Positions 96 to 9,261 of a stretch of DNA of 9,261 nucleotides are shown in pieces (position 1 is the first letter of the stretch; every line of letters starts with the position of its first letter). Source of the DNA: a virus. Lineage: Duplodnaviria > Heunggongvirae > Uroviricota > Caudoviricetes. The position numbers and the translations under genes were made by a program. The stretch is from IMG/VR virus record IMGVR_UViG_2657245500_000015; one strand, written 5' to 3'. A model generated the notes under the pieces. That model was given only the letters and a program-made list of their open reading frames with translations. It was not told the origin of the DNA and made no database searches.

Positions 96-435
96 ACGTC
101 ATTTTATGCAGGGAATGTGTAGTTCTACACAGATTCTATGCAGTATCGGTATAGTCCCTTTTTATTCTAACTTATTGAAATATATAAAGAATCTGCAAAG
201 CCTCTTTTCAGGGAGCTATGCAGGGTGTTAGTCGTCCCTCTCCAGACACTACATATAGTGCTATATACAGGGCTATATAACGATATATAGATGTTTGGTC
301 ACATGGTGTAACTATCAAGAAACTTAATAGTTTCCTATGTGAAAGTTATTTCTGAGGGTGGGTAAGTGCTCAGGAGATTTCATGAGGATAATTCTTATCC
401 GAATCATCACGTAGAACACGCTTAAGCACAGATAC

Positions 436-458
436 AAAAAAGCCCCCATGAAGGAGGC
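436..458 (-). terminator. Putative rho-independent terminator of the recombinase gene
   Basis: On the minus strand the RNA reads GCCUCC-UUCAU-GGGGGC (6-bp stem with one G-U pair) followed by UUUUUU; it lies 27 nt downstream of the recombinase stop at 485. Confidence 0.55.
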
Positions 459-484
459 TATGAATCTATGCAGGTGATGAGAAA

Positions 485-1051
485 TTATTCAGCTTTAATA
501 CGCTGTACAGTTGACTTGGCAACGTTGAATTGAGCGGCTACTTTAGCGATTGAACTACCAGCAGCAAGAGCAGCTTTAATACCTTCTCTGTCAACCGCTT
601 TACCGTTACCCCTTCCAACTACACGACCAGCAGCTTTAGCAGCTTCATAACCTTCTCTTTGACGCTCAAGCATCATTTTACGTTCAGCTTCAGCCACTGC
701 TGAAAAGATTGTGAGAATCATCTTAGACGTGGGGTTATCGTCACCAGTTATCAGACCTTCTTTGTGAAAGTGAACCTTGATACCTTTCTGTGAAAGTTTA
801 TCCACCAGCGTTAATACATCCACGGTAGAGCGCCCTAAACGTGACAGGTCGTGTACATGGATAGTGTCACCTTCACGAACATAATCGAGCATAGCCTTTA
901 GTTGTGGACGGTCTGTATTCTTCCCAGATGCTTTATCAGTAAATACCTTATCCAGTACGACCCCTTCAAGTTGACGGTCTGTAATCTGCTGGATTGATGA
1001 AACTCGAACATAACCAATGTTAGCCATAATATACTCATTTGCCTTACTCAT
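485..1051 (-). CDS. Serine recombinase, resolvase/invertase family
   Basis: N-terminus MANIGYVRVSSIQQ matches the catalytic-serine motif of Hin/Gin/gamma-delta resolvase; also FTDKASG, DLSRLGRS, ILTIFSAVAEAER E-helix, and a C-terminal HTH (SSIAKVAAQFNVAKSTVQRI). The likely true start is the internal Met at 1027 (MANIGY...), since the ATG at 1051 has no SD. Confidence 0.9.
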   Translation of the reverse strand: MSKANEYIMANIGYVRVSSIQQITDRQLEGVVLDKVFTDKASGKNTDRPQLKAMLDYVREGDTIHVHDLSRLGRSTVDVLTLVDKLSQKGIKVHFHKEGLITGDDNPTSKMILTIFSAVAEAERKMMLERQREGYEAAKAAGRVVGRGNGKAVDREGIKAALAAGSSIAKVAAQFNVAKSTVQRIKAE

Positions 1052-1071
1052 TTGATGGATTGAGTATAACG

Positions 1072-1153
1072 TACCGATAAAGTGTTTTACAAGGCTAATC
1101 GGTATGGTTTTTACAGGGGGTTAGCTATACCTTTTTAGTATGCTATATCGGTA
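1072..1153. promoter_or_regulatory. Candidate recombinase binding (res/crossover-like) region upstream of the recombinase gene
   Basis: Inverted pair TACCGAT (1072-1078) and ATCGGTA (1098-1104), a further ATCGGTA at 1147-1153, and direct GTTTTACAAGG / GGTTTTTACAGG motifs. Its position just 5' of the recombinase gene is typical for res sites. Not validated. Confidence 0.25.
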
Positions 1154-1519
1154 TGCCTAAGAGATGGAGATGCCTTTACAGCAACTCACATAGAAAGTCA
1201 ATAGATATTTGGCTTTTTTGCAAAGGGGGTCACATAGCTGGTGTGACGGGTACTTAGCAGGTATAGACCTGTGATAGATATTTTCGAAGATTCGGGGAAG
1301 ATGAGATTCAAAGAGGGCTAGTCATTTTTTATAAAAATTTTCAGACTCTGAAAAGTTACTGTACAGATTTTATACAGATATCTTTAAAGTATCTGTAAAG
1401 ACTTTTAAGATAAGAGATAGATATCCCAGAAAGGATATCCGTTTAGAAAACCTGTTAAGTATCTCTTAAAAGAGAGTAAACCTTGTCAATAGTGATTGCA
1501 ATAAAAATTTTTATTTCTT

Positions 1520-2182
1520 ATGTCAATTGAGCATATTTTAATCGGGAAACATCATGGGGGTTCTGATTACTGGAGAACTCCATTTCTTATATTCCGCAAT
1601 TTGCACCGTGAGTTTAGTTTCAGTCTGGATGGTGCTGCAACTGAGCATGACACGCTGTTACCACGATTCACCAATGATATTCACAATCAGTCATGGGATG
1701 GTGAACGGGTGTTCTGTAACCCACCATACAGCGACACTAAAACATTCCTCCTAAAAGCCGCTGAAGCGGATTTAGCGGTATTCCTGATACCGTACCGACC
1801 CCACACCACATACTGGCTTAAGCACCTCTTCACAAACCCGCTTTGCCATGAAATCCGTATTCTTCATCGTGCAGTTAAATACCTTCCACCAGCAGGGCAT
1901 AACGGGCTTGCTATTAGGTCACCGTTTGCAAGTGCAATTGTCATCTTTAAAACTGAGCCACGCAGACATGAAATTACGCAGATGATTTGCTGTGCTGATA
2001 CATTGCTACCGTTAACCATCATTAACAGAGGAGGCTTAAGAGGAAGACCCACCATTTACCCACCTGAGACGCTCGACAGCTTCATAAAGCTATACAGGCA
2101 AGGAAAACCCATTAAGTGCATTGCAGATGCTCTCAGAATGCCTCTGAGCACGTCATACAGGATTGCGCAAAGGTTGAGCTAA
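1520..2182 (+). CDS. Dam-family DNA N6-adenine methyltransferase with C-terminal invertase-type HTH domain
   Basis: WRTP, FSLDGAATEHDTLLPRF, VFCNPPYSD and VFLIPYRP motifs are typical of phage (T1-type) Dam methyltransferases. The last ~55 aa (NRGGLRGRPT...LYRQGKPIKCIADALRMPLSTSYRIAQRL) match the GRP plus HTH C-terminal domain of Hin/Gin-type serine recombinases. No obvious SD before the ATG at 1520. Confidence 0.8.
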   Translation: MSIEHILIGKHHGGSDYWRTPFLIFRNLHREFSFSLDGAATEHDTLLPRFTNDIHNQSWDGERVFCNPPYSDTKTFLLKAAEADLAVFLIPYRPHTTYWLKHLFTNPLCHEIRILHRAVKYLPPAGHNGLAIRSPFASAIVIFKTEPRRHEITQMICCADTLLPLTIINRGGLRGRPTIYPPETLDSFIKLYRQGKPIKCIADALRMPLSTSYRIAQRLS

Positions 2183-2286
2183 AATTCTCATAAATATGGC
2201 CATTTACAAGACAGGTGATTTAGATATTAAGAAGTATCCCTGTGAACAATAAATGACCAATCAGTAATTATTCTGTGAAATAATTG

Positions 2287-2315
2287 TTGCAATCTATAAT
2301 CACACATGATATAGT
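2287..2315 (+). promoter_or_regulatory. Candidate sigma70 promoter (TTGCAA-N17-TATAGT) upstream of the replication gene
   Basis: TTGCAA at 2287-2292, 17-bp spacer, TATAGT at 2310-2315. Confidence 0.35.
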
Positions 2316-2548
2316 TTCATAGTGGGCTGATAAAAAAGTTCATGTCTTGAAGTGGTAACACTTGGGGAGGTGTCAGATGATTGACGTCAACAAGACCTCT
2401 CATTCAGGGTAATTACCTCAGCGTTTTAATCATCGTACTGTTTCAGGCATGGACTTCTTTATCAGTCCATCAATCCCCCAGATATTTTAATCACACAGGC
2501 TAATCGGTTTTATCCGGTTGGCCTTTTCACGTATGAGGTAATTTATGA

Positions 2549-3487
2549 ATGTCTAAATATAACCCAAATCAGTTTTATAAATTTGATGTGCGAATCTCTC
2601 AGCTTTCAGAAGAAATTAACGCAGCAGCAAGATTAATTTATATGGTCATGGTTCATAGCTGTGATTTCTATGAAGAGAAGTACAAAGCATATTCACCAAG
2701 TATTGACCATCTAGCTTATATGGCTGGTGTTTCAAAGAGAACGGCAATCAGAGCTATTGAGACACTTGAGAAACACGGTTTAATTCAGGTGCAAAAGAAT
2801 CAGGGTCGTCAAAGCACTTATCGTGTATTCACACTGGATGATAAGCCGGAATTACTTGTAAGACCTACATCACAGGAAGTTGCAGCCTCAGTAAGACAAA
2901 ATGACACCACTACCAGTGACAAAATGTCATCAGTACCAGTGACAAAATGTCATGGGGGTAGTGACAAAATGTCACCCGTGTTAGATAAGTTATTAGATAA
3001 AACATTAGATAATAATATTATAGATAAGAGTAAAGATACTGAACTTGATGTTGGTATCAATGAAGATGATTTTCTTTCTTTGGATGAATTAAATGATTTT
3101 CTCTCTATGAATGAATCTGACCTTGATAGTGAAGCTACTAAAGAGACCTCTAAAACATCTGACTTAGAGGAAGATAAAATCTCTGATGTGAATGAAGTTA
3201 GTGACCAGCAAGATACACCTTGCCGCCTCGAATCAACTGATGATGAATTACCGGATGTTGACCTTGATGATGAAGAAGACCCTGAAGAGGAATTGAAACG
3301 TGAACAGCGTAAAGCAGAAATTAAAGAAAGATTCAGAAAGGCAAAGCTAAAGAACAGGATTGATGAACTTGATGACTTTGATGATAGTGACGATGATTTT
3401 ACTTTTACACCAAAAAAGAAAACTCACACCGAGCCAAAGAAAGAAAAAGTTAAAGTCAGACGTGTTTATGCTGGAGGAATGTTTTAA
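2549..3487 (+). CDS. Replication initiator protein (N-terminal HTH DNA-binding domain, acidic C-terminal tail)
   Basis: N-terminal region (SIDHLAYMAGVSKRTAIRAIETLEKHGLI) resembles HTH-type phage/plasmid replication initiators. Four iterons and an AT-rich tract lie inside the coding sequence, as in lambda O/ori. SD GAGG at 2534-2537. The C-terminal third is highly acidic low-complexity sequence. Confidence 0.8.
   Translation: MSKYNPNQFYKFDVRISQLSEEINAAARLIYMVMVHSCDFYEEKYKAYSPSIDHLAYMAGVSKRTAIRAIETLEKHGLIQVQKNQGRQSTYRVFTLDDKPELLVRPTSQEVAASVRQNDTTTSDKMSSVPVTKCHGGSDKMSPVLDKLLDKTLDNNIIDKSKDTELDVGINEDDFLSLDELNDFLSMNESDLDSEATKETSKTSDLEEDKISDVNEVSDQQDTPCRLESTDDELPDVDLDDEEDPEEELKREQRKAEIKERFRKAKLKNRIDELDDFDDSDDDFTFTPKKKTHTEPKKEKVKVRRVYAGGMF
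2893..2975. repeat. Iteron array: four copies of the palindromic motif (a)GTGACAAAATGTCA(t) at ~23-bp spacing
   Basis: GACAAAATG cores at 2895-2903 (degenerate copy AGACAAAATGACA), 2918-2926, 2941-2949 and 2963-2971. Each full site has dyad symmetry (TGACA-AAA-TGTCA). The 23/23/22-bp period is about two helical turns. Confidence 0.7.
2981..3029. other. AT-rich tract with repeated TTAGATAA (putative DNA unwinding element of the origin)
   Basis: TTAGATAA at 2981-2988, 2993-3000 and 3005-3012 (12-bp period), and TAGATAAG at 3022-3029, immediately downstream of the iterons. Same order (iterons then AT-rich) as lambda ori. Confidence 0.5.
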
Positions 3488-3777
3488 TGAAAGAATATAA
3501 CGGTGAAAAACGATACAAAGATTATCTATTAAGGCGCTACAGCATTTCTCGTGAAGGTCATCTTCTGAAAGATACTCATGGGGAGGTTTACCGGATTCGA
3601 CCGAAGAAGGAAGGAAAGAATTATTTCTTTTTTGATGGTGTGACAGATTTAAAGATTGACGCTTTGAGGTTTGCAGTGATGTATCATTTTGATGTCTGGG
3701 ATTCAGTCCACCAGCTACGATTAAAAGACGGTGACCCCGGTAATCTGAAGGCCACCAATATCATCACAAAACGTTAG
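3487..3777 (+). CDS. Hypothetical small protein, NUMOD4/HNH_3-like (possibly degenerate HNH)
   Basis: The ATG overlaps the replication gene stop (TAATG coupling) and GGAGGA SD lies at 3471-3476. YSISREGHLL, ALRFAVMYHF and LRLKDGDPGNLKATN parallel the Y.VSN.GRV / HRLV / HIDGNK.NN.NL pattern of small HNH homing-endonuclease-like proteins, but the conserved His positions appear replaced. Confidence 0.6.
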   Translation: MKEYNGEKRYKDYLLRRYSISREGHLLKDTHGEVYRIRPKKEGKNYFFFDGVTDLKIDALRFAVMYHFDVWDSVHQLRLKDGDPGNLKATNIITKR

Positions 3778-3959
3778 TTTGTTTTACCATCATCAATCGT
3801 AATTGTGATTTCATATTTGAAAAGCTTAATGCTGAAATTGAATCGTGTACTTTTGGCGATAATCATTTTTAAAAGCTGATACACCAGAAGCACCAGAAAC
3901 ACAAAGCAACCTAAGCTTGCGAATCTGTGAGATTCAGCAATTGTTTCAAGAAAGCCCAT
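3774..3959 (-). CDS. Small hydrophobic (probable membrane) protein, 61 aa
   Basis: Minus-strand ORF with a predicted transmembrane stretch (LGCFVFLVLLVYQLL). SD-like AAGGGGA 5 nt upstream of the ATG, and a candidate minus-strand promoter at 4011-4038. Its 3' end overlaps the convergent ORF ending at 3777. Confidence 0.4.
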   Translation of the reverse strand: MGFLETIAESHRFASLGCFVFLVLLVYQLLKMIIAKSTRFNFSIKLFKYEITITIDDGKTN

Positions 3960-4010
3960 TAATTCCCCTTATTTATCAAAGGGAATGACCTGTATCAGCC
4001 CCTATAACCA

Positions 4011-4038
4011 TAATATCATGTAAATGAGATGTTGACAA
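4011..4038 (-). promoter_or_regulatory. Candidate minus-strand sigma70 promoter (TTGTCA-N16-TATTAT)
   Basis: The reverse complement of 4033-4038 is TTGTCA and of 4011-4016 is TATTAT, with a 16-bp spacer. It would drive the small hydrophobic ORF 3959->3774. Confidence 0.35.
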
Positions 4039-4060
4039 TATGTTAAATAAATGTTAAGAT
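4032..4060 (+). promoter_or_regulatory. Candidate sigma70 promoter (TTGACA-N17-TAAGAT) for the 4097-4812 operon
   Basis: TTGACA at 4032-4037, 17-bp spacer, TAAGAT at 4055-4060. Its -35 overlaps the -35 of the divergent minus-strand promoter. Confidence 0.4.
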
Positions 4061-4096
4061 TGTAGTATGAGTAAGAGATTTAAGGAGATTTTTACA

Positions 4097-4387
4097 ATGA
4101 CTCACACAGTTACGCGCCTTTTGCCAGAGGCATTTGAACGACTGGCAGCAATCAAAGCCAAATATCCCGATATGAAGCACACAGCGCTTGTTGCAGAGGT
4201 TTTAAAAGAGCCGGTAGACTTGACCCCTTTCGATAACGTTAAGGGCGTTGCAGAGGGTTCTAAGGCCATCAGAATCACAACGGGCCAACTGGAACTACTC
4301 AAAGCACAGTCCGCAGTAGCAGGTTGCTCAATGATTCAGGTCTTAAGCGCAAAGGTTCATCAATTAGCGGATAAGCTGGGGGTTTAA
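4097..4387 (+). CDS. Hypothetical DNA-binding protein, ribbon-helix-helix-like (possibly two tandem RHH motifs)
   Basis: The start is moved to the ATG at 4097 because of the AAGGAG SD at 4082-4087 (the ATG at 4067 sits on the promoter). TVTRLLPEAFERLAAIKAKY...HTALVAEVL and IRITTGQLELLKAQSAVAG...MIQVLSAKV each fit a beta-strand/helix/helix RHH pattern. Confidence 0.65.
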   Translation: MTHTVTRLLPEAFERLAAIKAKYPDMKHTALVAEVLKEPVDLTPFDNVKGVAEGSKAIRITTGQLELLKAQSAVAGCSMIQVLSAKVHQLADKLGV

Positions 4388-4812
4388 TGCTATGTACATT
4401 TGATTATCATGCGTTTTATCGACATAGAGGTCATCTTGTCCGTGAGAATAACGGAACATGGAAAGATTTAACTCGTAATGCTGAACCCTTCACACACCAG
4501 CAATTAAAATCCCGCTTCTCCAGATGGAAGAATGCACCAGCAGATACTGGTGATTTTGAGATTATCCATACCTTCGATTATGCCTCAGAAGATGACCTTC
4601 ACGATGCAATTAAGCTGATTGAAGACTTCAATACCTCAGAAAATGTGGATGGTGACAAATATAAATCCCGTGGTAACCGCTATAACCGTGATGATATCAC
4701 TCAGGCCATAAATGCTGGTCAATCTCAGCGATACATTACAGAAAAATATGGTATTTCACGGAGACAGTATTTCTACGTTAAATCATTGATTAATAAAGAC
4801 AATTCAAAATAA
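4387..4812 (+). CDS. Hypothetical protein with C-terminal helix-turn-helix
   Basis: The ATG overlaps the upstream stop (TAATG), indicating translational coupling. C-terminal ITQAINAGQSQRYITEKYGISRRQYFYV resembles resolvase/HTH_23-type HTH motifs. Confidence 0.65.
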   Translation: MLCTFDYHAFYRHRGHLVRENNGTWKDLTRNAEPFTHQQLKSRFSRWKNAPADTGDFEIIHTFDYASEDDLHDAIKLIEDFNTSENVDGDKYKSRGNRYNRDDITQAINAGQSQRYITEKYGISRRQYFYVKSLINKDNSK

Positions 4813-4971
4813 CCATCTCAGTAACGGTAGAATGCACTTTACAGGCAGAGTTGCACCTTAATTTGATAAATTACCTTACCAGCCAGTGCAACTCCCTCTG
4901 TAACCCGCATGGTTACTGGCCTCAGAATGGCTATTTTAAGAGGTCTGAGATGTGTTTTAGAGGAATTTAAA

Positions 4972-5295
4972 ATGAGCAATTACGAATTACAGATTTTCGT
5001 TGATAACGACACCGCTATGATGATTCAGGCTTTCAGTGATTCCGGTGTATCAATTGATTTTGACAGGCTGTTAAAGCTGATGGCTGATAATGCAGAAAAC
5101 ATCTCTGACTTTATTCAGTCGGTGGAGTTTAACGAGCCTCGAATGATGCTACCAATTACCGACTCAAACATGAAAAGATTGGTTATCGAGCAAACGAACA
5201 AACACAGTATTTCCCCAGAGCAATTTTTGAAAGGTGCTGTGACAATCCTGCACAGCGATAATATTCTGGTGACGGATTCTATGAGGGTTCACTAA
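4972..5295 (+). CDS. Hypothetical protein (107 aa)
   Basis: The start is placed at the ATG at 4972, preceded by GAGGA at 4959-4963; the longer ORF from 4909 has no SD. No family recognised. Confidence 0.6.
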   Translation: MSNYELQIFVDNDTAMMIQAFSDSGVSIDFDRLLKLMADNAENISDFIQSVEFNEPRMMLPITDSNMKRLVIEQTNKHSISPEQFLKGAVTILHSDNILVTDSMRVH

Positions 5296-5372
5296 TGGGA
5301 TTGATAATTGCTTGGACAGCTTTAGGTTTATTTGTTGGTTGCTGGGTGGGCAACACAGTAAATAAGAATTGA
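5295..5372 (+). CDS. Possible 25-aa hydrophobic peptide (MGLIIAWTALGLFVGCWVGNTVNKN)
   Basis: The ATG overlaps the stop of the upstream gene (TAATG at 5293-5297). The peptide is a single predicted transmembrane helix. Below the size cut-off of the ORF track. Confidence 0.3.
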   Translation: MGLIIAWTALGLFVGCWVGNTVNKN

Positions 5373-5396
5373 TGTTACCAATCTGTTAAAAAGCTG

Positions 5397-5425
5397 TTGA
5401 CAAATAACCTTAAGCATGGCATAAT
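5397..5425 (+). promoter_or_regulatory. Consensus-like sigma70 promoter (TTGACA-N17-CATAAT)
   Basis: TTGACA at 5397-5402, 17-bp spacer, CATAAT at 5420-5425; predicted transcription start near 5432. Confidence 0.5.
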
Positions 5426-5620
5426 TGTATATATGAGGATAGTCTTCTATCCGAAGTCTATAGGAAGAGCAATTTTTCCTAAAATCATATTTTCAATAAT
5501 CCGATGGATGGATATTCTGAGTTGGAAAGGTGCAATGCTTTTCGTCATGGCCTTTCAGTTTAGTCTGAGAGGTCATCTCAAAAAGTGCTTAATCATTCAT
5601 TATTGAACCCTTACAGCTTT

Positions 5621-5650
5621 GCCCTAACTCATGATTAGGGCGTTTTCTTT
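5621..5650 (+). terminator. Rho-independent terminator
   Basis: Stem GCCCTAA (5621-5627) pairs with TTAGGGC (5635-5641), 7-nt loop, followed by GTTTTCTTT. About 220 nt downstream of the 5397 promoter. Confidence 0.55.
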
Positions 5651-5720
5651 AAGAGTTTTGAAACAGAGCTTTTAAAGAAAGTTTTCCTGAAACTTCGTTA
5701 ACGTTATAAGCAAACCTTCA

Positions 5721-5755
5721 AAGCCCTTCACAGATTATGTTTAGGGCTTTTCTTA
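5721..5755 (+). terminator. Second terminator-like hairpin
   Basis: AAGCCCT (5721-5727) pairs with AGGGCTT (5743-5749), 15-nt loop, followed by TTCTT. Weaker than the first because of the large loop. Confidence 0.3.
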
Positions 5756-5851
5756 ATAGAGCATCTTTAATAAATCGTTAAGTCATCTTCTAAGTGTATT
5801 GGCGTTGAAGGTGCTCTATTAAGAAATAACCACACTTAGAGGAAAAAAATA

Positions 5852-6562
5852 ATGACAAACGATATTTACATTAATGGCAAAGTGATTGATAGCTTCGGTG
5901 ACTGGTCACCACAGACTGAACATCCAGCTATCGCTATTCAGCGCAAAGAGCACGATGCGAGAATTGCACTTGAGCAATCGCTAAAGATGACACCAAAGGA
6001 AATTACCTTTGTGGCTCCTGAACCTCAAGAGATGCCCGATATTGGCAAAACTGAAGCATTATTTAATCTTGAGCGCGAATATTACCCACAGTTAAAAGAA
6101 CAGCGCCTTAGATTAGATGACGCTTACAGCAAAGTTACCTTGATGCAATCAGCTATTGAGCCGTCAGAATTTGAGATTCAGGATGAATTGTCACAGAAAC
6201 CATTTGTCTATTACCAATACGAAGACAATGATGGTTTTGGTACTTTTCCAGAAAACATCACAGGCGTGATTAGTAGTCTTCCTGATGGATATCGAATTGT
6301 GAAGATGGTTAAAGCTTCAAGAGGTGCTGGTCAGTTTATTTACATGACCAATAAGAGCGATGAAGAACTCCGTGAAATTGCCAGACAGAACATCTTGGCA
6401 TCACGTAACAAGCAACTTGAAAATGTTAAGTTGTATCTCTCAAGAGAGCTTCAGGCTATGAAAGAGCTTGTTAGTGAATATGAGTCGCAGAAGAAGATTG
6501 CTATGCAAGCCGATATTGAGCAGCTTACGAAGATTTCTCAGAAGTATAGCAAAGCGATTTAA
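5852..6562 (+). CDS. Hypothetical protein (236 aa, C-terminal predicted coiled coil)
   Basis: Long ORF with SD AGAGG at 5838-5842 and ATG at 5852. No family recognised. Confidence 0.75.
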   Translation: MTNDIYINGKVIDSFGDWSPQTEHPAIAIQRKEHDARIALEQSLKMTPKEITFVAPEPQEMPDIGKTEALFNLEREYYPQLKEQRLRLDDAYSKVTLMQSAIEPSEFEIQDELSQKPFVYYQYEDNDGFGTFPENITGVISSLPDGYRIVKMVKASRGAGQFIYMTNKSDEELREIARQNILASRNKQLENVKLYLSRELQAMKELVSEYESQKKIAMQADIEQLTKISQKYSKAI

Positions 6563-6578
6563 TTTAAGTGAGGTGAGA

Positions 6579-6794
6579 ATGATTGATTTGCAACAGCGTT
6601 ATGAAACTATTAAGTCGGCTTGTGAAAACTTAAAGTTACAAACCAAGCCAGCCTTAAGAATTAAAACCAAACATCAAATTATCACCTCACACAAACCAAA
6701 AACACGCAAGATTCCAAAGTGGTGTATTGACCGTATTCCTTCTGATGCTCAAATCATAGGTGAAACGGAATTACATTATCTTGTCCGACATTAA
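6579..6794 (+). CDS. Hypothetical small basic protein (71 aa)
   Basis: ATG at 6579 preceded by GAGGTGA at 6568-6574. The longer ORF from 6468 overlaps the preceding gene and lacks an SD. Confidence 0.5.
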   Translation: MIDLQQRYETIKSACENLKLQTKPALRIKTKHQIITSHKPKTRKIPKWCIDRIPSDAQIIGETELHYLVRH

Positions 6795-6821
6795 AAAAGA
6801 ATTGGTTGGGTAAAAATCAAC

Positions 6822-6863
6822 GGGAGAGATTATCGAGTGATATCGGTAGTTTCTCCCTTTTTT
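6822..6863 (+). terminator. Putative terminator hairpin with T-run
   Basis: GGGAGA (6822-6827) pairs with TCTCCC (6852-6857), followed by TTTTTT at 6858-6863. The loop is long (24 nt), so stability is uncertain. Confidence 0.4.
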
Positions 6864-6870
6864 GTATGTG

Positions 6871-6913
6871 TGCTACGTGAAATCTTCTGAACAGATATAC
6901 CCACCAAAAATTA
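6871..6913. repeat. Direct repeat copy R1 (TGCTACGTGA-AAT-CTTCTGAACAGATA...AAAAATTA)
   Basis: About 43 bp, near-identical to 9110-9152: blocks TGCTACGTGA (10/10), CTTCTGAACAGATA (14/14) and CAAAAATTA match, with a short variable linker. R1 is additionally bounded by the 7-bp inverted repeat GCTACGT (6872-6878) / ACGTAGC (6920-6926). Confidence 0.7.
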
Positions 6914-6954
6914 TTTTTTACGTAGCTCACGCTTAAAGAGGTGAAAAAATATGA

Positions 6955-9021
6955 ATGGCACAATTTAAAGTTGATGATTTTCTGATTGAGCTAGGTTTTA
7001 ACTCTCAGAGGGTTTTAAAAGGTCTGGAAAAAGCCGAGAAACAAACGATGCAGGTAGCATCACGAATTGAGAAGCGATTGAATAAAGCTTTTAAAGTTAA
7101 CCCTACGCCTTTAAATGATTCTCTCAAGGTCATGGAAAGAAATGTCGATAAAACTGTTTCCAAGATTGAGCAGCGTCTTAAAAACACTAAAGCGTTTAAG
7201 ATTAAAACGGAAATTGAGGATACTTTAAAGCCACTTAGACAACCGAGACAGCCACGAATTAGCGGAAGCAGAGCAATTACAGCAGCGCATAGCGTGAATA
7301 TGAGCAAGCTTCGTGACTTTAATCCTATGCTTGAGAAGTATTTTAAAAGCCAGTATTACAGCTTAAGCAGTAAATCCAAGACACTTGGAAACGAAGCTTT
7401 TAATCGTGAGTTAGCAAAATTAAATCAATCTCTTCGTGAAACACTTTCTAAGTTTAACAAGACCACCAGCAAAAATAATCACAGTGAAAATGCTTCGAAT
7501 GGTCTGGATGTATTAGCTACGAGTGCAATCAAAGCAGGTACAGCCATTTATAGTTTTCAGACAGCCTTAGAAGCTTACAGGCGGATTATGGAGGTTGGTC
7601 TGAAAAAAGAAGCATCACAACGAGCGGCACAATTCGTTTTAGGTGATGAAGGTGCTAAACGAGCTACAGAATTTGTTAAGAATCTTGCTGATAGTAGTGG
7701 TGTAGACCAGATTGAAACATTAAGCAGTTTTGCTAAGTTTTCCGCTGGTGCTGGTGATATGAATGCAGACCAGAAAGAATCCTTATTTTCTAATGTGATT
7801 GGTACATCCAGATTAATGGGGCTAAGCACCGATGAAATTAACGGGATTTTAAAAGCTTTCGAGCAGATGGCATCTAAAGGAAAGATTCAGGCTGAAGAGC
7901 TACGCGGTCAATTAGGTGACAGAATGGCAGGTGCTTTTCAGTTATTTGCCAGAAGTCTTGGGATGACTACGGAAGAATTAGACAAGGCTATGAAAGACGG
8001 TAAGGTTCTTTCTAAAGATGTTCTCCCTAAAGTATCCGCTGAAATGGGAAAGATGATTGATAAAGCGGGAGGATGGGAAAAGATTATTAACTCTACTCAG
8101 ACGCAGTTAGGCCGCTTAAGTAATTCATGGAATAATAATTTGGCCTTAATGTTCGATGGTTCACAGGAAGGTTTAACAGACTTTACAAGGTCACTGACTA
8201 ATTTACTTAATTCACTGGGTGGTCAATCTAAAAATCTTGGTGAACATTTTGGCGACTTGATGAAAAGCATGTCAAACGGTATTGATGATTTAACCACGAT
8301 TAGCTACCGAGTGCAGGGATTCTTTGACAGAGTGACCCTTGCTTACAGAGAATTAAATGACACTCAAAAAGCTGTAGCTGATGGTATCGCAAATGGCCTG
8401 TTAAGTGCATTAAAGGGACTTGCTGGTATTGTCGCTGTAAGGTCTGGTATTGGTGCTGTAGGTGGTATCTGGAACTTAATTAGGGCTATTTCCACGCTTG
8501 GGAATGTAGCAAATACAGCAGCAGGAAGAATTAATTCACGTTCTGGTGGTGTTGAAAGTGGAAAAAGTAGGCTATCTGTAGCTGATGCAATTACCAGAGT
8601 AATGATTGTCGGTATGACAACTGATGTGATTAATGCCATTGTCAAACCGTTCTATGAACGTCAGATGAGTAAGTCAGATAATCCGATTGATAAAGTTGTA
8701 AGGTCAAAGGTGGAACCCACAGACCAGGCATTAACTGGTGACATGAACTCTTTAGCCGCTGTTTTATGGGCTATGGTTCATGGCAAATCAAAAGATGTTC
8801 CACAGTTTTCACCTGAAGCATTAAATAATCTAAAAGGTCGAGTGGAAACATTCACACAAGATTTAAAGGTTATCAAGCCGTCAGTAAATATTCAGCCTCA
8901 GACAATCAATATCACAACTCAGACGGTACTTGATGGAAAGGTTATTGATGAAAGAACCACATCGCATATTAATCGTATGCAGGAAGATACCTTGATTAGC
9001 TCAGCTTACCCAGAGGAATAA
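6955..9021 (+). CDS. Tape-measure-domain protein (phage tail tape measure-like), 688 aa
   Basis: The segment FEQMASKGKIQAEELRGQLGDRMAGAFQLFARSLGMTTEELDKAMKDGKVLSKDVLPKVSAEMGK matches the conserved tape-measure domain pattern (SKGK.Q.EEL..QL..R.PGA.Q..A...G....EL...M..GK.L...VLP). A Gly-rich hydrophobic segment (GLAGIVAVRSGIGAVGGIWNLI) is typical of tape-measure proteins. SD AAAGAGGTGA at 6936-6945. Confidence 0.85.
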   Translation: MAQFKVDDFLIELGFNSQRVLKGLEKAEKQTMQVASRIEKRLNKAFKVNPTPLNDSLKVMERNVDKTVSKIEQRLKNTKAFKIKTEIEDTLKPLRQPRQPRISGSRAITAAHSVNMSKLRDFNPMLEKYFKSQYYSLSSKSKTLGNEAFNRELAKLNQSLRETLSKFNKTTSKNNHSENASNGLDVLATSAIKAGTAIYSFQTALEAYRRIMEVGLKKEASQRAAQFVLGDEGAKRATEFVKNLADSSGVDQIETLSSFAKFSAGAGDMNADQKESLFSNVIGTSRLMGLSTDEINGILKAFEQMASKGKIQAEELRGQLGDRMAGAFQLFARSLGMTTEELDKAMKDGKVLSKDVLPKVSAEMGKMIDKAGGWEKIINSTQTQLGRLSNSWNNNLALMFDGSQEGLTDFTRSLTNLLNSLGGQSKNLGEHFGDLMKSMSNGIDDLTTISYRVQGFFDRVTLAYRELNDTQKAVADGIANGLLSALKGLAGIVAVRSGIGAVGGIWNLIRAISTLGNVANTAAGRINSRSGGVESGKSRLSVADAITRVMIVGMTTDVINAIVKPFYERQMSKSDNPIDKVVRSKVEPTDQALTGDMNSLAAVLWAMVHGKSKDVPQFSPEALNNLKGRVETFTQDLKVIKPSVNIQPQTINITTQTVLDGKVIDERTTSHINRMQEDTLISSAYPEE

Positions 9022-9109
9022 ACAATGTTAGAGCTACTAATATTTATTGCCACACATGGCAATCTATTAATCTTTATCTAGTATGACGATTCAACTATGA
9101 ATAGTCGAA

Positions 9110-9152
9110 TGCTACGTGATTTCTTCTGAACAGATACCAACATCAAAAATTA
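9110..9152. repeat. Direct repeat copy R2
   Basis: Near-identical to R1 (6871-6913); lies 89 bp downstream of the tape-measure gene stop. It lacks the right-hand ACGTAGC inverted-repeat arm seen at R1. Confidence 0.7.
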
Positions 9153-9261
9153 GATGAACCGCCCCGGGTTTCCTGGAGAGTGTTTTATCTGTGAACTCAG
9201 GCTGCCAGATCATTGTTTCCGATGGAAGCATAATAAGCTTTTTCTGCTTCTGCCGGAGGAG
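9112..9261 (-). CDS. Possible 3' end of a minus-strand gene continuing beyond the window (partial)
   Basis: The minus-strand frame is open for 49 codons from the window edge to a TAG at 9112-9114 (...LIFDVGICSEEIT*). The last ~110 bp are about 50% GC by manual count, against roughly 40% elsewhere. A + strand frame from the ATG at 9154 is also open, so strand and reality are uncertain. Confidence 0.25.
   Translation of the reverse strand, partial: LLRQKQKKLIMLPSETMIWQPEFTDKTLSRKPGAVHLIFDVGICSEEIT

What the first reader, a model, noticed from the sequence alone, without database searches (positions are those of the whole stretch)
1520..2182. Dam-family adenine methyltransferase fused to an invertase-type DNA-binding domain
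One uninterrupted 220-aa ORF combines a complete-looking Dam-type catalytic core (WRTP...DGAATEHD...NPPYSD...VFLIPYRP) with a C-terminal ~55 aa that aligns motif-for-motif with the GRP plus HTH DNA-binding domain of Hin/Gin/Cin serine invertases (Gin: GGRPPKLTKAEWEQAGRLLAQGIPRKQVALIYDVALSTLYKK; here: RGRPTIYPPETLDSFIKLYRQGKPIKCIADALRMPLSTSYRI). It lies one intergenic region away from an intact serine recombinase. It may be a methyltransferase targeted to recombinase-type sites (an epigenetic switch or protection of a recombination site), or the product of a rearrangement that replaced a recombinase catalytic domain.
Basis: partly seen in the sequence, partly recalled or inferred. Interest (0 to 1): 0.7.

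Follow-up and report, generated by a model that had tools for sequence, protein, structure and literature searches.

The report
Adenine methyltransferase fused to resolvase-type HTH
The gene is real: a small phage-type DNA adenine methyltransferase joined to a DNA-binding domain of the kind used by resolvases and invertases, and it is a conserved early gene of a mobile E. coli island that looks like an undescribed parasite (satellite) of Felix O1-like phages.

Summary
ORF 1520-2182 encodes 220 aa. Residues 15-155 are a 'phage Dam' (PF05869) N6-adenine methyltransferase core with an intact NPPY motif. Residues 175-220 are a resolvase-type HTH_7 domain with its GRP arm.

It is not an assembly artefact. 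The same 220-aa protein occurs in at least 111 complete E. coli genomes. Full-length relatives at 35-50% identity occur in Pantoea, Erwinia, Pseudocitrobacter and Scandinavium.

The proposed link to the neighbouring serine recombinase is not supported. That gene is a swappable cassette: absent, replaced, or inverted in other copies of the island.

The context matters more. The gene is a leftmost core gene of an ~11.5 kb island integrated by a large serine recombinase. The island has no GATC at all (about 41 expected). It shares 39% GC, total GATC avoidance, a tape-measure gene and a baseplate-type gene (60-74% identity) with Felix O1-like virulent phages. A 63-nt phage intergenic element lies just upstream of this gene.

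Best reading: a phage-responsive orphan methyltransferase whose HTH supplies DNA targeting. GATC methylation of its own element is impossible, so the target is another motif or other DNA.

The architecture is secure. The function is inferred.

The parts
1520..2182 (+). Dam-HTH gene: 220-aa two-domain protein (stop codon included)
   Evidence: ORF. It is 90% identical, over its full length, to RefSeq WP_071777358 'DNA N-6-adenine-methyltransferase'. The exact sequence is in NCBI as E. coli CUK19260.1 and others, in a cluster of 1842 members.
1562..1984 (+). Methyltransferase core (residues ~15-155): motif-I-like LDGAAT at 35-40, catalytic NPPY at 67-70
1985..2041 (+). Clade-specific beta-hairpin and linker (residues 156-174) with the conserved CADT..L motif
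   Evidence: D160 and L165 are invariant in the fused clade. Strands 153-157 and 164-170 appear in the model; pLDDT drops to 68 at 171-180.
2042..2179 (+). C-terminal GRP arm plus three-helix HTH_7 domain (residues 175-220)
   Evidence: HTH_7 25.4 bits on the isolated domain. Sin and gamma-delta resolvase hits. Helices 182-193, 198-204 and 209-219. G175, R176, P177, T178 and Y180 are invariant in the five closest clade members.
1330..1519 (.). Strongly conserved upstream control region of the gene, packed with short inverted repeats; no Shine-Dalgarno sequence and no consensus sigma-70 promoter found
   Evidence: Near-identical in four island variants that differ by ~10% elsewhere. Repeats. 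The promoter scan found nothing for this gene.
1397..1459 (.). 63-nt segment homologous to an intergenic element of Felix O1-like (Ounavirinae) phages; it contains the hairpin GATATCC-CAGAAA-GGATATC (1420-1439)
   Evidence: 84% identity to Felix O1 21578-21638. 253 phage records, essentially all Ounavirinae by name, match at 82-86%, E down to 2e-10 against 2.3 Gb. In E24377A the stem sequence differs but the loop is kept.
2060..2540 (.). Ultra-conserved DNA block covering the HTH-coding 3' end and the whole intergenic region up to rep; it includes a candidate structured RNA or leader (about 2320-2548)
   Evidence: Mean pairwise identity 0.92-1.00 across five variants, including the divergent E24377A copy. 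pS is 0.03 in HTH codons against 0.25-0.37 in the core. RNA fold z = -5.1. No Rfam family.
485..1051 (-). Small serine recombinase (Resolvase + HTH_7), inside a variable cassette at about 349-1203
   Evidence: Pfam and PHROG 125. The cassette is not homologous to the EC20017429 island at DNA level. It is absent in ZJ3920.
2549..3487 (+). Replication-initiator-like gene (HTH_36) with internal iterons AGTGACAAAATGTCA at about 2895-2979
   Evidence: Pfam HTH_36 and PHROG replication-initiation families. Repeats D3 and D9.
6955..9021 (+). Tape measure protein gene related to those of Felix O1-like phages
   Evidence: Pfam TMP_3 and PHROG 4036. 28-29% identity over 100% of its length to Ounavirinae tape measure proteins.

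Best explanation
Shown. ORF 1520-2182 encodes a genuine, conserved two-domain protein. The N-terminal part is a minimal 'phage Dam' (PF05869) N6-adenine DNA methyltransferase core with intact catalytic and cofactor motifs. The model shows no separate target-recognition domain. The C-terminal part is a resolvase/invertase-type HTH_7 DNA-binding domain, including the GRP arm.

Also shown. The gene is the first gene at the left end in two island copies (ZJ3920, Pantoea) and sits just inside the integrase or recombinase genes in the others. The island is ~11.5 kb, carries its own replication initiator, and is integrated by a large serine recombinase. It contains no GATC. It shares base composition, GATC avoidance, a tape-measure gene, a baseplate-type gene and an upstream intergenic element with Felix O1-like virulent phages. 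It is therefore most likely a satellite of those phages.

Inferred mechanism. The gene is controlled from the phage-like region upstream. The HTH docks the catalytic core onto specific DNA sites in the island and/or helper DNA. The core methylates adenines there. Because the element has no GATC, the family's classical GATC target cannot be the relevant substrate in cis. The enzyme therefore either has another specificity, set or restricted by the HTH, or acts on other DNA. The probable purpose is regulation or protection during the satellite's induction and replication. It is not tied to the neighbouring recombinase.
For: Architecture.

Real gene, not a merge:
- The gene plus its upstream region is covered at >=80% in 111 complete E. 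coli genomes, always annotated as one CDS.
- A fused clade at 36-62% identity, with NPP[YF] and D37 kept, is seen.
- Full-length relatives occur in four other enterobacterial genera.

Selection: pN/pS is about 0.27-0.37 in the core, and the HTH is essentially invariant.

Orphan status: no nuclease partner; PADLOC calls it an orphan methyltransferase.

Position: it is the first gene at the island's left end in ZJ3920 and in Pantoea, and lies next to the integrase in Pseudocitrobacter.

GATC avoidance:
- Window island 0 against 41 expected; EC20017429 island 0 against 50.
- The same holds in CT02, ZJ3920, 504211 and E24377A outside IS insertions.
- Felix O1 has 0 against 283 expected. This is published for the genus (PMC5477317).

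Phage link:
- Tape measure protein 28-29% identical over its full length.
- Baseplate-type gene 60-74% identical to 253 Ounavirinae phages.
- The 63-nt upstream element is found in 253 phage records, essentially all Ounavirinae.

Characterised PF05869 enzymes target GATC: M.EcoVT2Dam, per PMC6602927.
Against: - No methylation, DNA-binding or expression data exist here; specificity and targets are inferred.
- The low synonymous divergence of the HTH-coding part belongs to a 480-bp ultra-conserved DNA block. Its conservation may therefore reflect a DNA- or RNA-level constraint, or recombination, rather than selection on the protein alone.
- Relatives in Pantoea and Pseudocitrobacter sit in islands that do contain GATC, so the ancestral enzyme could be an ordinary GATC Dam.
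- Island variants without this gene are also GATC-free, so GATC loss is not caused by the enzyme.
- The short repeats upstream are not conserved in E24377A although its HTH is identical. This argues against them being the HTH's operators.
- No promoter or ribosome-binding site could be assigned.
Confidence: 0.45

Rival explanations
1. It is an ordinary GATC-specific Dam homologue that acts in trans on the host chromosome or other incoming DNA. The HTH only raises general DNA affinity or autoregulates the gene, as in methyltransferases that carry a regulatory HTH.
For: The characterised PF05869 enzyme cited in the literature read here, M.EcoVT2Dam, targets GATC (PMC6602927). The core is 32-47% identical to stand-alone family members. 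Relatives in other genera sit in GATC-containing islands. Stx phages also carry seemingly redundant Dam genes in Dam-positive E. coli.
Against: The host is already Dam-positive and the element has no GATC. A GATC enzyme would then have no obvious selective value for the island, yet the core stays under purifying selection. The invariant GRP arm and recognition helix suggest specific rather than generic binding.
Confidence: 0.25
2. The protein works mainly as an HTH transcription or replication regulator of the island's early module. The methyltransferase-like domain is vestigial, or serves only as a dimerisation or SAM-sensing module.
For: The gene belongs to a swappable early/replication module (window 1377-4890) together with the structured RNA and rep. 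The HTH part is far more conserved than the core. Some database entries name the protein only 'helix-turn-helix domain-containing protein'.
Against: NPP[YF], D37 and the other family-invariant residues are kept throughout the fused clade, down to 36% identity. The core's pN/pS of about 0.3 indicates constraint. The conservation of the HTH-coding DNA extends into non-coding DNA, so it is not evidence about the protein alone.
Confidence: 0.12
3. The methyltransferase is targeted to the sites of the neighbouring serine recombinase, either to switch or to protect a recombination site. Alternatively, it is a recent derivative of that recombinase.
For: The C-terminal domain is homologous to serine-recombinase DNA-binding domains, junction included. 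A small serine recombinase is adjacent in the window and in several islands.
Against: The recombinase cassette is absent in ZJ3920. It is of another type and orientation in EC20017429 and E24377A. It is replaced by tyrosine integrases in Pseudocitrobacter. The HTH has no detectable similarity to the window's own recombinase. No inverted-repeat pair bounding an invertible segment was found around the gene.
Confidence: 0.07
4. It is an artefact: two genes merged by a frameshift or an assembly join near 1950-2050.
For: The window is a short draft contig bounded by IS fragments. Frameshifted and truncated copies of the gene exist in databases (P0126-P0132).
Against: The same uninterrupted 220-aa ORF is present in over a hundred complete genomes. 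Full-length homologues occur in other genera. The model shows the beta-strands of residues 153-170 continuing the core into the linker at high confidence.
Confidence: 0.01

Closest known systems
Small phage 'Dam' methyltransferases of Pfam PF05869 / TIGR01712 (M.EcoVT2Dam of Stx phages; from my own knowledge also the T1 and HP1 phage Dam enzymes)
   Same: Same catalytic core family, with the D-x-A-A and NPPY motifs and about 150 aa without a separate target-recognition domain. Orphan, encoded on a mobile element of enterobacteria.
   Different: It carries an extra C-terminal HTH_7 domain that none of the hits in 50,697 phage genomes, IMG/VR or BFVD shows. It scores 41.3 bits against the TIGR01712 equivalog, far below the 97.05 cut-off. 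It sits in an element with no GATC, the known target of the family.
C-terminal DNA-binding domain of small serine recombinases (Sin, gamma-delta/Tn3 resolvase, Hin/Gin invertases; Pfam HTH_7)
   Same: A G-R-P arm followed by a three-helix HTH. There are significant profile and fold matches.
   Different: There is no Resolvase catalytic domain (PF00239 is absent). The domain is attached to a methyltransferase and is not specifically related to the recombinases next to it. Tc1/Sleeping Beauty PAI-type HTH domains match about as well.
DNA methyltransferases with an added DNA-binding module (from my own knowledge: SsoII/Ecl18kI-type C5 methyltransferases with a regulatory N-terminal HTH; CcrM with a C-terminal DNA-binding domain)
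   Same: The concept is the same: one polypeptide with a catalytic domain plus a second DNA-binding part that regulates or assists it.
   Different: The enzyme class, the position of the extra domain and the HTH type all differ. No homology was tested, and none of these appeared in the searches.
[quoted passage not shown]
   Same: The island context is similar: integration by a large serine recombinase, its own replication initiator with iterons, no capsid genes, and ties to a virulent helper phage (PLE properties from abstracts).
   Different: No sequence relationship was tested. The host and presumed helper are different. This island carries helper-like tail genes (tape measure and baseplate-type). 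Induction and packaging are not shown.

Membership tests
PF05869 'Dam' N6-adenine DNA methyltransferase family | Profile match above Pfam's gathering score | tested here: met
   56.6 bits against a cut-off of 28.1, E=3.4e-15.
PF05869 'Dam' N6-adenine DNA methyltransferase family | Catalytic (D/N)PP(Y/F) motif and the conserved D-x-A-A cofactor motif | tested here: met
   NPPY at 67-70 and D37-G-A-A. These columns are >=90% conserved in a 74-sequence family alignment and in the fused clade.
PF05869 'Dam' N6-adenine DNA methyltransferase family | Rossmann-type methyltransferase fold | tested here: met
PF05869 'Dam' N6-adenine DNA methyltransferase family | Methylation of adenine in GATC (activity and specificity) | not testable with these tools
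   No methylome or biochemistry is available. The element itself offers no GATC substrate.
TIGR01712 phage N-6-adenine-methyltransferase (equivalog) | Score above NCBI's curated cut-off | tested here: not met
   41.3 bits against 97.05, and only residues 15-83 matched.
HTH_7 (PF02796) resolvase-type DNA-binding domain | Profile match above the gathering score | tested here: met
   The whole protein scores 21.2 bits, below 23.8. The isolated domain scores 25.4 bits, and 11 of 12 clade members match, best E=1.2e-7. HTH_23 matches nearly as well, so the assignment is to the HTH_7/homeodomain-like group.
HTH_7 (PF02796) resolvase-type DNA-binding domain | G-R-P arm followed by a three-helix bundle | tested here: met
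   GRPT-Y is invariant in the five closest clade members. It aligns with KGVYKGRPLLY of Sin. Helices at 182-193, 198-204 and 209-219.
Small serine recombinase (resolvase/invertase) | N-terminal catalytic Resolvase domain (PF00239) with the active-site serine | tested here: not met
   No PF00239 hit in this protein. The neighbouring gene at 485-1051 has one at 4.5e-37.
Restriction-modification system | A cognate restriction endonuclease gene next to the methyltransferase | tested here: not met
   No nuclease family was found in any window protein by Pfam, PHROGs or PADLOC. PADLOC assigns 'orphan methyltransferase'.
Phage satellite (context of the gene) | An integrase, its own replication module, helper-related genes, and no full virion gene set | tested here: met
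   A large serine recombinase and two integration sites. A Rep-like gene plus iterons. A tape measure gene and a baseplate-type gene related to Ounavirinae. No capsid or terminase genes in 11.5 kb.
Phage satellite (context of the gene) | Helper-dependent induction, replication and packaging | not testable with these tools
   This needs infection experiments. The island is not present in IMG/VR viral contigs.

The most novel reading that the evidence does not exclude
The protein is a natural 'targeted' adenine methyltransferase. A methyltransferase core without its own target-recognition domain is tethered by a site-specific resolvase-type HTH. An undescribed satellite of Felix O1-like virulent phages switches it on from a copied phage control element. 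It then writes local m6A marks on helper and/or satellite DNA, which both lack GATC. Those marks would control helper gene expression, satellite replication or packaging.
Probability: 0.15. Interest if true: 0.85.

Novelty: new variant of a known kind. Interest (0 to 1): 0.6.

Why it matters
Orphan phage Dam enzymes are common and are usually dismissed as GATC methylases. This one has acquired a site-specific DNA-binding domain, and it lives in an element that has purged every GATC. Its biological target must therefore be something else.

If the HTH directs methylation, this would be a natural counterpart of engineered tethered methyltransferases. It would also be a new way for a mobile element to mark or control DNA.

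The context may matter more. The island looks like a widespread but undescribed satellite of Felix O1-like lytic phages in E. coli and Shigella. Parts of it match 569 of 5426 complete genomes. Those phages are used for typing and are candidates for phage therapy, so such an element could affect how well they work.

Tried and rejected
- Sequence search of the whole protein against solved structures gave only a weak HTH hit. A domain profile was needed.
- The search for homologous proteins returned only near-identical E. coli and Shigella copies in its top 120. The exhaustive representative search was needed to see the fused clade.
- The first alignment was too diverse for a genome scan. It was repeated with closer sequences.
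- The afdb50 fold library was unavailable.
- IMG/VR hit L096 seemed to cover residues 15-218. On translation it is a spurious high-GC match, not a fusion.
- Longer PF05869 proteins (P0135, P0142, P0149 and others) are fused to other methyltransferase domains or to unknown extensions, not to an HTH.
- I considered that the non-specific adenine methyltransferases Hia5/Hin1523 might be relatives, which would support a non-specific core. The paper shows they belong to the EcoDam/DpnM group, so the analogy was dropped.
- Three GATATC sites within 63 nt looked like a possible target. They are the stem of a hairpin, and in E24377A the stem has a different sequence with the same loop. GATATC as such is therefore not the conserved feature.
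- The motif ASAGATAY is enriched in the window (7 against 1.6 expected). It is not enriched in E24377A, whose HTH is identical, so it was rejected as the HTH operator.
- A TCTTAAAAG-like repeat is shared by both upstream regions. It is AT-rich and weak.
- No sigma-70 promoter or ribosome-binding site could be assigned to the gene.
- No Rfam family was found anywhere in the window.
- Literature searches for HTH_7 + adenine methyltransferase, yciI/tonB islands, and Felixounavirus + phage satellite found nothing relevant.

Full report
**1. The observation**

The N-terminal part matches Pfam Dam PF05869 (E=3.4e-15, 56.6 bits, cut-off 28.1). It also matches PHROG 111 'DNA methyltransferase' over residues 15-151 and PADLOC's orphan-methyltransferase model. 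It scores well below the cut-off of the TIGR01712 equivalog (41.3 against 97.05).

The C-terminal part scores just under the HTH_7 cut-off in the context of the whole protein (21.2 against 23.8 bits). It scores above the cut-off when scanned alone (25.4 bits, E=1.5e-5), and 11 of 12 clade members hit HTH_7. A profile built from the C-terminal domains of the clade finds Sin/Bin3 resolvase (E=7e-7). That alignment starts at the arm, KGVYKGRPLLY against rGglrGRptly. The profile also finds gamma-delta resolvase (4e-5), and about as well the Sleeping Beauty PAI subdomain.

The finding's own refutation criteria are not met.

**2. It is a real, conserved fusion**

- The exact protein is in NCBI as an E. 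coli protein, in a cluster of 1842 members.
- The gene with its upstream region is covered at >=80% in 111 of 5426 complete E. coli genomes, always annotated as a single 'DNA N-6-adenine-methyltransferase' CDS.
- An exhaustive search of 1.84 billion cluster representatives gave 2417 family members at E<=0.001. Only the 150 best are listed, and most of these are 130-200-aa proteins that match the core only.
- A small clade matches over the full length, at 37-62% identity for the listed members (P0121-P0125, P0131).
- Full-length relatives at 35-50% identity lie in Pantoea, Erwinia, Pseudocitrobacter and Scandinavium genomes.
- In this clade NPP[Y/F], D37 and a clade-specific C-A-D-T motif are conserved, and GRPT-Y is invariant in the five closest members.
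- No sequenced phage (50,697 records), IMG/VR contig or BFVD model shows the two-domain form.
- Other long family members are fused to further methyltransferase domains, not to an HTH.

**3. The neighbouring recombinase is not a partner**

Comparing islands shows that the small serine recombinase is a variable cassette (window about 349-1203).

- EC20017429 and E24377A carry a different recombinase gene on the other strand (35% identity in EC20017429).
- CT02 has the window's type.
- ZJ3920 has none.
- In Pseudocitrobacter the gene is flanked by tyrosine integrases.
- In Pantoea it abuts chromosomal cmoA/cmoB.
- The HTH has no BLASTP similarity to the window's own recombinase, and only 33% identity over 43 aa to the other type.

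The domain was probably recruited from a serine recombinase or a related HTH long ago. There is no evidence that it works at the neighbour's sites.

**4. What the surrounding element is**

In complete genomes the window corresponds to an ~11.5 kb island. Its gene order is: (optional small recombinase) - Dam-HTH - Rep-like gene with internal iterons - small ORFs - tape measure protein - 'baseplate' protein - large serine recombinase.

The island is inserted either between yciI and tonB or inside the DUF72 gene next to yecN. The window itself is a draft contig cut by IS fragments at both ends.

Three observations tie the island to Felix O1-like virulent myoviruses (Ounavirinae).

(a) Tail genes. 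The tape measure protein is 28-29% identical over its whole length to theirs. The next gene is 68% identical to the Felix O1 gene that follows its tape measure gene, and 60-74% identical in 253 such phages.

(b) Composition. The island has 39% GC and no GATC at all: 0 against about 41 expected in the window, and 0 against 50 in EC20017429. The GATC-free zone coincides exactly with the island borders in six genomes, and GATC appears only inside IS insertions. Felix O1 also has 39% GC and 0 GATC against 283 expected. This trait has been published for the genus (PMC5477317).

(c) A shared control element. A 63-nt segment just upstream of the Dam-HTH gene (1397-1459) is 82-86% identical to an intergenic element present in 253 phage records, essentially all Ounavirinae, with E down to 2e-10 against 2.3 Gb.

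The island has an integrase and a replication module but no capsid or terminase genes. It therefore looks like a satellite of these lytic phages, comparable in layout to Vibrio PLEs. I found no paper linking Felixounavirus and phage satellites in the library. Induction and packaging are not shown.

**5. Consequences for the methyltransferase**

The characterised member of this family cited in the literature read here targets GATC (M.EcoVT2Dam, PMC6602927).

Here the host is already Dam-positive and the element has no GATC. Yet the core keeps all family-invariant residues and evolves under purifying selection, with pN/pS about 0.27-0.37 among island variants. A cis-acting GATC enzyme would be useless in this setting. 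Either the specificity is different, plausibly set or restricted by the HTH since the model shows no separate recognition domain, or the enzyme acts in trans.

Relatives in Pantoea and Pseudocitrobacter islands are not GATC-free. Island variants lacking this gene are still GATC-free. GATC loss is therefore a property of the Felix-type lifestyle and not of the enzyme.

The gene belongs to a swappable early module (window 1377-4890). That module runs from the phage-like element through Dam-HTH, a structured intergenic RNA candidate and rep to the 141-aa ORF (4387-4812).

**6. Points that limit the inference**

- The HTH-coding DNA has almost no synonymous change (pS 0.03 against 0.25-0.37 in the core).
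- This is part of a 480-bp ultra-conserved block (2060-2540) that continues through the whole intergenic region to rep. That region folds into a stable RNA (z=-5.1) with no Rfam match.
- The striking identity of the HTH, even in the divergent E24377A copy, may therefore reflect a DNA- or RNA-level constraint or recombination, and not only protein function.
- The short repeats upstream are not kept in E24377A, so they are poor candidates for the HTH's operator.
- No promoter or Shine-Dalgarno sequence could be assigned.

**7. Verdict**

The architecture is certain.

The best-supported mechanism has confidence about 0.45. It is a phage-responsive orphan adenine methyltransheferase whose resolvase-type HTH supplies DNA targeting, acting on non-GATC sites or on other DNA during the life cycle of a Felix O1-type satellite.

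The rivals are:
- an ordinary trans-acting GATC Dam with an accessory or autoregulatory HTH (0.25);
- a regulator with a vestigial methyltransferase domain (0.12);
- the recombinase-site idea (0.07);
- an artefact (0.01).

It is a new variant of a known kind. A methylome of an expressing strain and a Felix-type infection experiment would settle both the enzyme and the island.

Noticed in passing
window 100-9140 (whole island part); also L001 11811-23593, L122 4809-16678, L123 4787-16442: GATC is completely absent: 0 observed against about 41-50 expected. The only GATC in the window, at 9208, lies in the IS fragment. The GATC-free zone coincides with the island borders in six E. coli genomes. 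Felix O1 is equally GATC-free (0 against 283 expected).
   Followed up: yes
whole window; L001 12001-23400: The island looks like an undescribed satellite of Felix O1-like (Ounavirinae) lytic phages. It has a large serine recombinase, two chromosomal integration sites (yciI/tonB and inside the DUF72 gene by yecN), and Rep plus iterons. Its tape measure protein is 28-29% identical and its baseplate-type gene 60-74% identical to those phages. It has the same 39% GC and no capsid or terminase genes. Parts of it match 569 of 5426 complete E. coli genomes.
   Followed up: partly
window 1397-1459: This 63-nt segment upstream of the Dam-HTH gene is 82-86% identical to an intergenic element conserved in 253 phage genomes, essentially all Ounavirinae (Felix O1 21578-21638, between ORF40 and ORF41). 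It contains the hairpin GATATCC-CAGAAA-GGATATC. In E24377A the stem is ACACTC/GAGTGT with the same loop.
   Followed up: partly
window 2060-2540: This is an ultra-conserved block (0.92-1.00 identity across five island variants that otherwise differ by 10-25%). It spans the last ~120 nt of the Dam-HTH gene and the whole 366-nt spacer before rep. Positions 2320-2548 fold into a long stem plus a terminator-like hairpin (z=-5.1), with no Rfam family. Overlapping promoter-like sites lie on both strands at 2287-2333.
   Followed up: partly
window 2895-2979: Four tandem copies (spacing 22-23 nt) of AGTGACAAAATGTCA-like iterons lie inside the Rep-like gene. This suggests an origin embedded in the initiator gene, as in lambda O. 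The C-terminal half of the protein is extremely acidic and of low complexity.
   Followed up: no
window 6871-6913 and 9110-9152: A 43-nt direct repeat (84% identical) lies upstream of the tape measure gene and again upstream of the baseplate-type gene, which is cut off by the IS. It is conserved in EC20017429. These may be paired promoters or regulatory sites for the two phage-derived tail genes.
   Followed up: no
window 349-1203: The small serine recombinase cassette differs between islands. It has the same type and orientation in CT02, another type (35% identity) on the opposite strand in EC20017429, and is absent in ZJ3920. The flanks at 121-348 and 1204 onward are shared.
   Followed up: partly
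window 1377-4890 compared with L124 13048-15978: Some islands (for example strain 504211) replace the whole early module, from the phage-like element and Dam-HTH through the RNA and rep to the 141-aa ORF (4387-4812), with an unrelated ~2.9 kb segment that is largely without annotated genes. The break lies exactly at 1376/1377.
   Followed up: no
window 1-~100 and 9144-9261: Both ends of the window are IS fragments: IS421-like on the left and IS3-family IS629-like on the right. The right one truncates the island after the tape measure gene. The window equals a ~9.6 kb draft contig of an E. coli assembly.
   Followed up: partly
window 1554-1754 (+1 frame); protein P0126: Databases contain frameshifted and truncated copies of the gene. 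P0126 begins in the alternative frame that corresponds to the window ORF 1554-1754. Some lineages have therefore inactivated the methyltransferase part while keeping the C-terminal part in frame.
   Followed up: no
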